The translations under genes and the position numbers were made by a program. Below the pieces are notes generated by a model, which was given only the letters and a program-made list of their open reading frames with translations, ran no database searches and was not told where the DNA came from. From positions 89,653 to 153,652 of the forward strand of contig CAYRGD010000001.1 in the NCBI GenBank assembly GCA_964423885.1: a stretch of 64,000 bases of DNA, read 5' to 3'. This document shows, piece after piece, positions 1,208 through 1,286 of this stretch (position 1 is the stretch's first letter; every line of letters starts with the position of its first letter). Source of the stretch: an uncultured Candidatus Saccharibacteria bacterium (lineage in GTDB: Bacteria; Patescibacteriota; UBA1384; JACPKC01).

Positions 1208-1286
1208 GGCCAGGTAGCTCAGCCGGCAGAGCACCCTTGCACACCCGTAAGGGCGGTCGGAGGTTCGAATCCTCTCCTGGCTTCCA
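1208..1286 (+). tRNA. tRNA gene with CCA encoded, tRNA-Val-like body but non-canonical 20-nt anticodon arm (anticodon undetermined)
   Basis: Acceptor GGCCAGG/CCTGGCT (G1·U72). D-arm GCTC-AGCCGGCA-GAGC. T-arm GGAGG-TTCGAAT-CCTCT. Variable loop CGGTC. Discriminator T plus CCA. The anticodon arm CCCTTGCACACCCGTAAGGG is 3 nt too long: 5-bp stem with 10-nt loop, or 6-bp stem with 8-nt loop. Confidence 0.6.

What the first reader, a model, noticed from the sequence alone, without database searches (positions are those of the whole stretch)
1208..1286. tRNA with canonical acceptor/D/T arms but a 20-nt anticodon arm (3 extra nt) and G1·U72, lying between rplL and tgt
The sequence GGCCAGG-TA-GCTC-AGCCGGCA-GAGC-A-[CCCTTGCACACCCGTAAGGG]-CGGTC-GGAGG-TTCGAAT-CCTCT-CCTGGCT-T-CCA folds as a tRNA of 76 nt plus CCA. 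The body is Val-like, but the anticodon arm cannot form the standard 5-bp stem with 7-nt loop. The options are 5 bp with a 10-nt loop, 6 bp with an 8-nt loop (CACACCCG), or 7 bp with a 6-nt loop. No U33-NNN-R37 reading is compatible with a stem. Expanded anticodon loops occur in frameshift-suppressor or quadruplet-decoding tRNAs, in tRNA-derived regulatory RNAs and in pseudo-tRNAs. Its placement right before the tRNA-modifying enzyme Tgt is notable.
Basis: seen in the sequence. Interest (0 to 1): 0.6.

Follow-up and report, generated by a model that had tools for sequence, protein, structure and literature searches.

The report
Conserved tRNA look-alike that cannot decode
The odd tRNA is real and belongs to a small family of tRNA-shaped genes in one group of ultra-small bacteria; evolution has kept the tRNA body intact but let the codon-reading loop drift, so it most likely does a job other than decoding.

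Summary
Window 1208-1286 (+) is a 79-nt tRNA-shaped gene. It has canonical acceptor, D and T arms, G1·U72, U73 and an encoded CCA, but a 20-nt anticodon arm (5 bp with a 10-nt loop, or 7 bp with a 6-nt loop) and no possible U33-NNN-R37 reading. A second assembly carries the identical sequence.

It is not a one-off. The host is a Berkelbacteria-related Patescibacterium, and six other diverged relatives carry a homologous gene in the same rplL–tgt slot. All seven have U73 and an intact cloverleaf. Of stem cells, 98.6% are paired, 12 of 21 pairs show compensatory double changes, and the 15:48 tertiary pair covaries. Four-fold synonymous sites of the neighbouring tgt are saturated.

The anticodon loops share neither length (7-11 nt) nor anticodon. 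Insertions sit only in the D loop and the variable region.

The body plus U73, a canonical tRNA-Thr(GGU) at the same position in a more distant relative, and YGU remnants in 5 of 7 loops all point to a tRNA-Thr origin, not Val.

Best reading: a selectively maintained, non-decoding tRNA-like RNA. Its function is unknown; ThrRS binding or charging is possible. A quadruplet decoder, sequencing error, mini-intron or plain dead pseudogene are all poorly supported. No functional link to Tgt was shown.

The parts
1208..1286 (+). tRNA-like gene (79 nt including the encoded CCA). Acceptor 1208-1214 / 1276-1282 (G1·U72), U8 A9, D arm 1217-1232, A26 at 1233, variable loop 1254-1258, T arm 1259-1275, U73 at 1283, CCA 1284-1286.
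   Evidence: Rfam tRNA 47.4 bits. Identical in L168. Homologues in six relatives.
1234..1253 (+). Non-canonical 20-nt anticodon arm, CCCUU-GCACACCCGU-AAGGG. It is predicted to close to 7 bp with the 6-nt loop ACACCC. It contains a CGUAA remnant of a Thr(CGU)-type loop whose AA now pairs with U30 and U31.
   Evidence: Compare L162 (GUGCGUAAC), L165 (GUUGUAAC) and the canonical GUGGUAC of L004.
1174..1202 (+). 12-bp GC-rich hairpin directly after rplL, with no U tract. It ends 5 nt before the tRNA-like gene. In relatives the equivalent hairpin is followed by a T run.
   Evidence: Read directly from the sequence. Terminator-like sites in relatives.
1291..1312 (+). Intrinsic-terminator-like hairpin followed by TTTGTT, closing the tRNA-like transcription unit.
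   Evidence: Equivalent sites lie downstream of the homologues in L001 and L160.
729..1157 (+). rplL (L7/L12), the upstream neighbour.
   Evidence: TIGR00855, 133 bits.
1334..2512 (+). tgt (tRNA-guanine(34) transglycosylase family), the downstream neighbour. It appears to have its own -10-like box (TAGACT, 1325-1330) and little or no leader.
   Evidence: (TIGR00430, 338.7 bits against a cut-off of 306.75). The -10 box was read by eye.

Best explanation
The gene encodes a non-decoding tRNA-like RNA that descends from a tRNA-Thr gene lying between rplL and tgt in a Berkelbacteria-related clade of Patescibacteria. Shown: seven diverged lineages keep the whole L-shaped body, namely the four stems, U8, A14, G18G19, the T loop, the 15:48 tertiary pair and U73. 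They keep it through compensatory substitutions, while the anticodon loop varies freely in length and sequence. Insertions are tolerated only at the D loop and the variable region. Inferred: the RNA is transcribed either from its own promoter or, in this window, together with rplJL. RNase P trims it, and it carries or receives a CCA end. It cannot read codons, because in the window's copy there is no U33 and the remnant CGU is buried in an extended stem. It therefore acts through its tRNA body and acceptor end. My best guess for the partner is threonyl-tRNA synthetase. U73 is typical of tRNA-Thr, and the G-U that ThrRS reads at positions 35-36 survives as YGU in 5 of 7 loops. The RNA may thus still be bound or charged by ThrRS, and serve as a ThrRS ligand/regulator or as a threonyl carrier outside normal decoding. 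My rough probabilities: 0.7 for 'selectively maintained and non-decoding', 0.55 for 'tRNA-Thr origin', 0.25 for 'ThrRS-bound or charged'.
For: (1) Homologues sit in the same rplL-tgt slot in L001, L007/L161, L002, L160, L162-164 and L165. All score as tRNA in Rfam (34-57 bits; the window's copy 47.4). (2) On the 53-column core, 98.6% of stem cells are paired. Twelve of 21 pairs have changes on both sides, including all 5 anticodon-stem pairs and 5 of 7 acceptor pairs. None of 500 shuffles reaches this, and slid controls give 45-59% pairing. (3) The 15:48 pair covaries: G15:C48 in the window and L165, and A15:U48 in L001, L002, L007, L160 and L162 (read). (4) Four-fold synonymous sites of the adjacent tgt are saturated (identity 0.26-0.50 against 0.37 expected from composition), while the tRNA-like core keeps 68-87% identity. 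(5) Within each gene the loop has taken several mutational events while the 42 stem positions show only 2 unpaired cells of 147. Neutral decay would not produce that contrast. (6) The loops are GCACACCCGU, AUUCGUUU, UCAUGUAGAUU, AUCUUUC, UGAAUUUA, GUGCGUAAC and GUUGUAAC, with no common anticodon. (7) Thr origin: all seven have U73. In about 1000 reference tRNAs, U73 marks Gly (42/47), Cys (21/23) and Thr (31/48), with Val at 0/51. Body motif plus U73 is tRNA-Thr in 12 of 21 cases. L004 has a canonical tRNA-Thr(GGU) with U73 immediately upstream of tgt, and its acceptor and anticodon stems are homologous to family members. YGU occurs in 5 of 7 loops (simulation P = 0.027, motif chosen post hoc). 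(8) Threonine identity rests on acceptor-stem pairs and anticodon nucleotides (PMC9976931). (9) Terminator-like hairpins flank the gene in relatives and follow it in the window. (10) The predicted EF-Tu contribution of the T stem is in the normal elongator range, -0.1 to +0.7 kcal/mol relative to tRNA-Phe. This is my arithmetic on Table 2 of PMC3239215.
Against: There are no expression, end-mapping, charging or modification data. The family is small (7 distinct sequences) and patchy: the gene is absent from the same slot in L003, L166, L167 and L172, so it is dispensable in some lineages. I chose the stem boundaries used for the covariation count by hand, which favours pairing. L160 carries small tandem duplications and L162 and L165 each have one acceptor mismatch, which could be early decay. 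L002 and L160 lack any GU in the loop, and the window's acceptor (G1·U72, G2-C71) does not match the E. coli-type ThrRS determinants G1-C72 and C2-G71. I could not inventory the rest of any genome, so I cannot show that a normal tRNA-Thr set exists elsewhere. ACG makes up 41% of Thr codons in the window's genes, so an ACG decoder must exist somewhere. The promoter scan found no full sigma-70 match; the -10 boxes were read by eye.
Confidence: 0.6

Rival explanations
1. It is a dead tRNA pseudogene: a redundant tRNA-Thr copy decaying neutrally, with no function.
For: The gene is missing from the same slot in L003, L166, L167 and L172. There are tandem duplications in L160 and large D-loop insertions in L001 and L162. 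L162 and L165 each have a single acceptor mismatch. CCA is not encoded in 3 of 7 copies.
Against: Neutral sites are saturated between these genomes, yet the core is 68-87% identical and 98.6% paired, with 12 of 21 pairs changed on both sides. Damage is confined to the loop and to structurally permissive sites. The tertiary pair 15:48 covaries. U73 is invariant while the acceptor stem beside it turns over.
Confidence: 0.15
2. It is a functional decoder with an expanded anticodon loop: a natural +1 frameshift or quadruplet-reading tRNA, as implied by ARAGORN's 'cacc'.
For: ARAGORN reports a 4-base anticodon in a 6-bp / 8-nt reading. Expanded-loop suppressors and the yeast mitochondrial tRNA-Thr1 with an 8-nt loop do function (PMC7609411; PMC4756836). 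The T stem is predicted to be EF-Tu-competent.
Against: There is no U33 in any register. The most stable fold is 7 bp with a 6-nt loop. Orthologues have loops of 7-11 nt with unrelated sequences, so no codon assignment is conserved. Known suppressors carry one extra nucleotide next to an otherwise canonical anticodon.
Confidence: 0.05
3. It is a dedicated partner of the neighbouring Tgt: a substrate, decoy or regulator recognised through a YGU motif in the enlarged loop.
For: The adjacency is conserved in seven lineages. YGU occurs in 5 of 7 loops and UGU in L007 and L165. E. coli TGT needs only a UGU in a loop and can use UGU outside the anticodon loop on unmodified transcripts (as cited in PMC1635277). 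The clade's Tgt has an altered pocket: LDVC in place of LDEC, and GGNMYTFG plus a 9-aa insertion in place of GGLAVGEG.
Against: The window's copy has CGU, not UGU, and it is base-paired. L002 and L160 have no GU. The altered Tgt and the rplL-tgt adjacency also occur in relatives that lack the tRNA-like gene (L003, L166, L167, L172). Each gene has its own terminator or promoter-like signals. In this slot more distant relatives carry a tRNA-Arg(GCG) (L169), a tRNA-Ile(UAU) and an aberrant Asn-like tRNA (L170), and tRNA-Glu, tRNA-Thr and an aberrant Pro-like tRNA (L004), which suggests simple historical linkage.
Confidence: 0.1
4. It is a normal tRNA whose loop is repaired after transcription (mini-intron splicing or editing), or the extra bases are a sequencing or assembly artefact.
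For: Three extra nucleotides could in principle be a tiny intron. Patescibacteria are known for unusual insertions in rRNA genes (my own knowledge).
Against: A second assembly carries the identical sequence. Removing any 3 contiguous loop bases still leaves no U33. The orthologues would each need a different excision (1-4 nt in the loop, plus 21-24 nt in the D loop or about 10-13 nt in the variable region). There is no bulge-helix-bulge motif, and group I introns are more than 200 nt.
Confidence: 0.04

Closest known systems
Bacillus cereus tRNA-Other (pseudo-tRNA recruited to a regulatory role; PMC3399842)
   Same: It is a chromosomal gene that scores as a tRNA, does not function in translation, and is retained and used for something else. 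It is the nearest precedent for a former tRNA gene kept as a tRNA-like element.
   Different: tRNA-Other is embedded in longer transcripts, is regulated by iron, and flanks a genomic island. Here the gene is a compact unit between terminators in a ribosomal-protein neighbourhood, in Patescibacteria, and probably derives from tRNA-Thr. Conservation of the body with a free-running loop across lineages has not been described for tRNA-Other.
Frameshift-suppressor tRNAs with 8-nt anticodon loops (SufB2/sufD, SufJ; PMC7803779, PMC4238358)
   Same: The anticodon loop is enlarged in an otherwise normal tRNA body.
   Different: Suppressors have exactly one inserted base beside a canonical anticodon and keep U33. 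The window's RNA has three extra bases, no U33 and a buried triplet, and its orthologues differ in loop length and sequence.
Yeast mitochondrial tRNA-Thr1(UAG) with an 8-nt anticodon loop (PMC4756836, PMC4267643)
   Same: It is a threonine-accepting tRNA with an enlarged loop that its ThrRS still recognises. It shows that ThrRS can accommodate non-standard loops.
   Different: tRNA-Thr1 has a fixed loop and a defined decoding role (CUN to Thr), and it evolved from tRNA-His. The present family has no fixed loop and no inferable codon.
Staphylococcal non-proteinogenic tRNA-Gly (cell-wall cross-bridge donors) and other 'specialised' weak-EF-Tu tRNAs (PMC3239215)
   Same: These are extra tRNA copies kept for a non-ribosomal use of the aminoacyl group.
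   Different: They keep a canonical anticodon loop, which their synthetase needs, and have weak EF-Tu-binding T stems. Here the loop is aberrant and the T stem is predicted to bind EF-Tu normally.
E. coli thrS operator (tRNA-Thr anticodon-arm mimic bound by ThrRS; PMC9976931)
   Same: It is an RNA that presents a CGU-containing hairpin to ThrRS for regulation rather than decoding.
   Different: The operator is a cis element in an mRNA leader without an acceptor arm. Here there is a free-standing, complete cloverleaf.

Membership tests
Canonical elongator tRNA (Rfam RF00005; functional decoder) | Cloverleaf with 7-bp acceptor, 4-bp D and 5-bp T stems, and a score above the Rfam gathering threshold | tested here: met
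   47.4 bits against 29. Homologues score 34-57 bits. Stems are 98.6% paired across the family.
Canonical elongator tRNA (Rfam RF00005; functional decoder) | 5-bp anticodon stem with a 7-nt loop, U33 and a purine at position 37 | tested here: not met
   The arm is 20 nt with a 10-nt loop (or 8 or 6 nt if the stem extends). The only U is the last loop base.
Canonical elongator tRNA (Rfam RF00005; functional decoder) | Anticodon conserved among orthologues | tested here: not met
   Seven orthologues have seven unrelated loops of 7-11 nt.
Canonical elongator tRNA (Rfam RF00005; functional decoder) | Tertiary-interaction nucleotides (U8, A14, G18G19, T-loop UUCRANU, R15:Y48) | tested here: met
   Present in all seven. 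The 15:48 pair covaries as G:C and A:U.
Canonical elongator tRNA (Rfam RF00005; functional decoder) | Aminoacylation and use on the ribosome | not testable with these tools
   Requires tRNA-seq, charging assays or ribosome association data.
Frameshift-suppressor / quadruplet-decoding tRNA | 8-nt loop made by one extra base next to a canonical anticodon, with U33 kept | tested here: not met
   Three extra bases and no U33. ARAGORN's 'cacc' reading needs C-A in place of N32-U33.
Frameshift-suppressor / quadruplet-decoding tRNA | A defined 4-base codon target, conserved or matched by recoding sites | tested here: not met
   The loop is not conserved among orthologues. Recoding sites in the proteome were not searched.
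tRNA-Thr | NGU anticodon in a canonical loop | tested here: not met
   CGU is present at 1246-1248 but lies at the 3' edge of the loop and is paired in the stable fold. The L004 orthologue has the canonical loop GUGGUAC.
tRNA-Thr | Body and discriminator typical of the isotype | tested here: met
   U73 is present in all seven. U73 is seen in 31 of 48 reference tRNA-Thr and in 0 of 51 tRNA-Val. Body motif plus U73 is Thr in 12 of 21 cases. The reference set comes from phage contigs, not from this clade.
tRNA-Thr | Acceptor-stem determinants G1-C72 and C2-G71 (E. coli / T. thermophilus type; PMC9976931) | tested here: inconclusive
   The window has G1·U72 and G2-C71. Across the family, G1-C72 occurs in 6 of 7 and C2-G71 in 4 of 7. 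The determinants of this clade's ThrRS are unknown.
Substrate of bacterial Tgt (GUN-anticodon tRNAs) | U33-G34-U35 in the anticodon loop | tested here: not met
   The window has CGU, not UGU. UGU occurs only in L007 and L165. The requirement is as cited in PMC1635277.
Pseudo-tRNA / tRNA-like regulatory RNA (tRNA-Other type) | tRNA-shaped gene that cannot decode but is retained | tested here: met
   Aberrant loop, together with purifying selection on the body.
Pseudo-tRNA / tRNA-like regulatory RNA (tRNA-Other type) | Acts as part of a longer regulatory transcript, with complementarity to targets | tested here: not met
   Terminator-like hairpins flank the gene. The loops show no consistent complementarity to sequence within 600 nt on either side, or to the window.
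Intron-containing tRNA | Group I intron (more than 200 nt) or a bulge-helix-bulge motif at the insertion | tested here: not met
   The insertion is 3 nt. No excision of contiguous bases restores U33-NNN-R37. The insertions in orthologues differ in site and size.

The most novel reading that the evidence does not exclude
A previously undescribed class of free-standing, tRNA-Thr-derived RNAs in Patescibacteria. The L-shaped body and the U73-CCA end are kept by selection while the anticodon arm is released from decoding. Such RNAs would work as a dedicated ligand of a tRNA-binding enzyme: ThrRS, or the clade's divergent Tgt encoded next door. Alternatively they would carry threonine for a non-ribosomal reaction. 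The repeated, lineage-specific remodelling of the loop would then be tolerated or even selected, for instance to keep the RNA off the ribosome.
Probability: 0.2. Interest if true: 0.75.

Novelty: new variant of a known kind. Interest (0 to 1): 0.5.

Why it matters
If the reading is right, a lineage with very small genomes spends a gene on a tRNA that cannot decode, and has done so across deep divergence. Non-translational tRNA relatives are known only from a few scattered cases: tRNA-Other, the cell-wall tRNA-Gly, and Y-RNA-like YrlA. This family offers a natural experiment. Selection has marked which parts of a tRNA matter when decoding is removed (acceptor end, elbow, stems, U73) and which sites tolerate insertions (D loop, anticodon loop, variable region). 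That information is useful for tRNA engineering and for annotating 'undetermined' tRNAs in metagenomic genomes. It is also a practical warning. Single-genome inspection suggests a quadruplet decoder, whereas the comparative data argue against that.

Tried and rejected
1. Sequencing or assembly error: rejected. The same 79 nt appear in L168 and homologues exist.

2. Quadruplet anticodon (CACC): rejected, because the loop is not conserved.

3. Mini-intron: no 3-nt excision gives U33-NNN-R37.

4. Antisense function of the loop. I searched ±600 nt around each of the seven genes for complements of the loop. Only scattered hits appeared (L001 9 nt, L002 8 nt), at unrelated positions, and nothing for the window. 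The 10-mer complement is not enriched in the 64-kb window (3 hits with at most 1 mismatch, one of them the loop itself, against 8 expected).

5. Isotype by BLAST against E. coli genomes and phages: uninformative. Weak hits went to Val, Pro, Ile, Phe and Asn.

6. A partner enzyme in the window. Pfam/NCBIfam scans of 25 proteins found no synthetase, Fem/MprF-type transferase, or other enzyme that uses aminoacyl-tRNA.

7. The metagenome scan with Tgt added almost no close relatives. Two protein look-ups returned places without DNA.

8. Degenerate remnants in relatives without a tRNA call. The Rfam E-value search found none in L166, L167, L080, L081 or L005. An 81-nt element in L166 folds with a 9-bp terminal stem but is not significant (z = -1.86).

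9. Readings as Asn, Tyr, Gly or Cys. I considered these because GUA/GUU, CCC and GCA triplets occur in some loops. I dropped them because G73 and A73 are expected for Asn and Tyr, and because the body motif was found in only 2 reference tRNA-Gly and in no tRNA-Cys.

10. Literature. Six full-text searches found no description of this family.
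Full report
**What is at the coordinates**

Window 1208-1286 (+) reads GGCCAGG-UA-GCUC-AGCCGGCA-GAGC-A-CCCUUGCACACCCGUAAGGG-CGGUC-GGAGG-UUCGAAU-CCUCU-CCUGGCU-U-CCA.
- ARAGORN finds exactly one gene in the 64-kb window, at these coordinates. It labels it 'tRNA-???' with a four-base anticodon 'cacc'.
- The Rfam tRNA model scores 47.4 bits (gathering score 29, E = 5e-7). The only irregularity is 12 nt where the model has 9 in the anticodon loop.
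- The anticodon arm is 20 nt. It can be drawn as 5 bp with a 10-nt loop, 6 bp with 8 nt, or 7 bp with 6 nt. The thermodynamic optimum is 7 bp with ACACCC, for the full RNA and for the isolated arm.
- The only U in the loop is its last base, so no U33-NNN-R37 register exists.
- G1·U72, U73 and an encoded CCA are as described.
- rplJ (108-692) and rplL (729-1157) lie upstream. A 12-bp hairpin without a U tract (1174-1202) ends 5 nt before the gene.
- A terminator-like hairpin plus T run follows at 1291-1312.
- tgt (1334-2512) passes the NCBIfam equivalog cut-off for Tgt.
- A Logan assembly of SRR12712864 contains the identical 79 nt.

**The organism and the neighbourhood**

The closest Tgt relatives come from Patescibacteria MAGs, several labelled Candidatus Berkelbacteria. 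The gene order pth-rplA-tmk-rplJ-rplL-[gap]-tgt-small ORF-two DUF8128/TraD-like ATPases is conserved among them.

**The key result: it is a family**

A tRNA-shaped gene sits in the rplL-tgt gap in relatives whose Tgt is 64-77% identical to the window's.

| Locus | Coordinates | Notes |
|---|---|---|
| L001 | 3846-3944 | |
| L007 | 3215-3306 | identical copy at L161:2842-2933 |
| L002 | 3784-3859 | |
| L160 | 283-379 | |
| L162 | 2841-2945 | identical copies in L163 and L164 |
| L165 | 2880-2955 | |

All exceed the Rfam tRNA gathering score, at 34-57 bits. ARAGORN calls them '???' or misses them, except L002, which it calls Lys(CUU) despite U37 and U73.

All seven sequences share:
- U8 A9, and the D stem GCUC/GAGC
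- A14, G18G19 and A26
- a canonical T loop
- U73

CCA is encoded in four of the seven.

The loops between the hand-assigned 5-bp anticodon stems have no common length, no common triplet and no conserved U33:

| Member | Anticodon loop |
|---|---|
| Window | GCACACCCGU |
| L001 | AUUCGUUU |
| L007 | UCAUGUAGAUU |
| L002 | AUCUUUC |
| L160 | UGAAUUUA |
| L162 | GUGCGUAAC |
| L165 | GUUGUAAC |

Lineage-specific insertions occur elsewhere in the molecule:
- L001 and L162 carry 21-24-nt insertions in the D loop. The L162 insertion forms a hairpin.
- L007 and L160 have long variable regions.
- L160 shows two small tandem duplications.

**Selection on the body**

I built a gap-free 53-column alignment of the stems, T loop and connectors, with the variable loops excised. 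I then counted pairs on it.
- 98.6% of 147 stem cells are standard pairs.
- 12 of 21 pairs show changes on both sides, including all five anticodon-stem pairs and five of seven acceptor pairs.
- No shuffle out of 500 reaches any of the measures.
- Sliding the partners by ±1-3 columns drops pairing to 45-59%.
- The tertiary Levitt pair covaries as well: G15:C48 in the window and L165, and A15:U48 in the other five (read).

For a neutral yardstick I compared four-fold degenerate sites of the adjacent tgt between the window and each relative. Identity is 0.26-0.50 against 0.37 expected from base composition, so these sites are saturated. The tRNA-like core keeps 68-87% identity.

One caveat: I chose the stem boundaries, which favours pairing. 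A second argument does not depend on that choice or on timing. Within each gene the loop has absorbed several indels and substitutions, while 42 stem positions show only two unpaired cells in the whole family. Insertions are found only where an L-shaped tRNA can tolerate them. Neutral decay does not produce that pattern.

**Controls for oddity**

Sixty tgt loci from unrelated bacteria (about 0.45 Mb) gave a single tRNA call and no '???' call. Among 1008 tRNAs predicted on 120 viral contigs fetched with a generic body pattern, 8 (0.8%) had non-standard anticodon calls. Seven out of seven in one genomic slot is far from that background.

**Ancestry**

The 'Val-like' impression reflects a generic class-I body. 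The same motif occurs in Arg, Lys, Thr, Ile, Ala, Val and other tRNAs, and BLAST hits are weak and mixed.

The discriminator is more informative.
- In the reference set, U73 marks Gly (42/47), Cys (21/23) and Thr (31/48). It is absent from Val (0/51), Asn (0/30) and Tyr (0/26).
- Among reference tRNAs that share the family's body motif, those with U73 are mostly tRNA-Thr (12 of 21).

Within the clade, L004 (Tgt 54% identical) has a tRNA-Thr(GGU) with a canonical loop (GUGGUAC) and U73 immediately upstream of tgt.
- Its acceptor stem (GCAGACG/CGUCAGC) is homologous to that of L165 (GCCGCCG/CGUCGGC).
- Its anticodon stem (CCCCC/GGGGG) is homologous to those of the window, L001 and L162.

Thr-type triplets survive in five of the seven loops: CGU in the window, L001 and L162, and UGU in L007 and L165. 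A composition-matched simulation gives P = 0.027, but I chose the motif after looking.

In the window the remnant reads CGUAA, as in a canonical Thr(CGU) loop UUCGUAA. However, the AA now pairs with U30 and U31, and a CA-rich expansion sits on the 5' side.

A rough neighbour-joining tree of Tgt puts the window with L001, P0004, L007 and L160. It places L165 with L004 and L170, and L002 with L003. The gene is therefore ancestral to the clade, was lost several times (L003, L166, L167, L172), and lost its canonical loop in most surviving lineages.

**How it most likely works**

Shown: a tRNA-shaped gene maintained by purifying selection on its whole L-shape and discriminator, with an anticodon loop that is not constrained for decoding.

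Inferred: the RNA is made, trimmed by RNase P, and carries CCA.
- In relatives, terminator-like hairpins both precede and follow the gene.
- By eye, -10-like hexamers lie about 10 nt (L160) to about 60 nt (L165) upstream of it. The sigma-70 scan found no full promoter.
- In the window the gene may be co-transcribed with rplJL, because the upstream hairpin lacks a U tract.

Threonine identity relies on acceptor-stem pairs and the anticodon nucleotides, with little role for position 73 in most systems (PMC9976931). A ThrRS can accept an enlarged loop, as in yeast mitochondrial tRNA-Thr1 (PMC4756836). The partial retention of YGU therefore suggests that ThrRS may still bind or charge these RNAs. 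I rate this at about 0.25.

T-stem pairs 49-65, 50-64 and 51-63 predict an EF-Tu contribution of -0.1 to +0.7 kcal/mol relative to tRNA-Phe. That is in the ordinary elongator range and unlike the weak-binding cell-wall tRNA-Gly (Table 2 of PMC3239215; the arithmetic is mine). The body thus still looks 'translation-grade', which leaves two possibilities:
- a ligand, sink or regulator of tRNA-binding proteins
- a threonyl carrier

I cannot decide between them.

**The Tgt question**

The adjacency is real and specific to this clade, but the evidence for a functional link is thin.
- E. coli TGT needs UGU in a loop (cited in PMC1635277). Only two family members have UGU, and the window has a paired CGU.
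- Relatives lacking the tRNA-like gene keep rplL-tgt adjacent.
- In this slot more distant relatives carry tRNA-Arg(GCG), tRNA-Ile(UAU), tRNA-Glu and tRNA-Thr, plus aberrant Asn-like and Pro-like tRNAs.

The clade's Tgt does differ from Z. mobilis Tgt in pocket motifs. That holds whether or not the tRNA-like gene is present.

**Comparison with what is known**

The family is not a frameshift suppressor. Those have one extra base and keep U33. It is not an intron-containing tRNA. It also fails the defining loop features of a decoding tRNA while meeting all body features.

Six full-text searches found no description of it.

I class it as a new variant of a known kind, the non-translational tRNA-derived RNAs. 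Interest is moderate. The comparative pattern is clean and unusual, but the function is unknown and the family is small and patchy.

Noticed in passing
window 1334-2512 (tgt), and the Tgt of L001-L004, L007, L160-L170: The Tgt of the whole clade keeps TDSGGFQ, GVGEPxD, FDCV and the CxCxxC...H zinc site. It replaces the pocket motifs LDEC with LDVC(TGFP), and AIGGLAVGEG with AIGGNMYTFG plus a roughly 9-aa insertion, relative to Z. mobilis Tgt and the outgroups. This might mean a different base or substrate preference.
   Followed up: partly
window 1321-1342; L001 about 3985-4006; L007 about 3348-3376; L160 about 425-440; L162 about 2985-3003: tgt appears to be leaderless or nearly so. A -10-like hexamer (TAGACT, TACACT, TACAAT, TATACT) lies 8-11 nt before the start codon, directly after the terminator of the tRNA-like gene. 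No Shine-Dalgarno sequence is evident.
   Followed up: no
L004:3601-3676, L004:3721-3797, L170:2653-2726: Other tRNAs in the same intergenic slot of more distant relatives are also irregular. There is a Pro-like tRNA with a 6-nt loop (UUGGGA), and a tRNA-Glu(UUC) with a 6-bp anticodon stem carrying a bulged A. There is also an Asn-like tRNA (U1-A72, G73) with a 6-nt loop (CGUUAA). This hints that non-standard anticodon arms may be more widespread in this lineage.
   Followed up: partly
window 20207-41347 (-): A run of about eight paralogous 860-1000-aa proteins. The four I scanned all carry DUF7948 plus SBBP beta-propeller repeats. This looks like a tandemly expanded surface or secreted protein family.
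   Followed up: partly
window 2905-8237 (+): Two tandem large proteins (816 and 961 aa) with weak TraD/VirD4-type coupling-protein matches (DUF8128 in relatives). Their position after tgt and a small Pro-rich ORF is conserved across the clade.
   Followed up: partly
L166:2780-2860: In a relative without any tRNA call, the rplL-tgt gap holds an 81-nt element with a 9-bp terminal stem and an internal GC hairpin. It could be an extreme remnant of the tRNA-like gene or an unrelated RNA. Its folding z-score is only -1.86.
   Followed up: partly
window 33877-36030, 41663-42751, 48396-50667: ORFs here have much lower third-position GC (0.42-0.63) than the rest of the window (about 0.8). They are either spurious ORFs in non-coding stretches or recently acquired DNA.
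   Followed up: no
window genes overall: ACG makes up 41% of threonine codons (496 of 1222) in 26 predicted genes. The genome therefore needs an efficient ACG reader somewhere else if the gene at 1208 cannot decode.
   Followed up: partly
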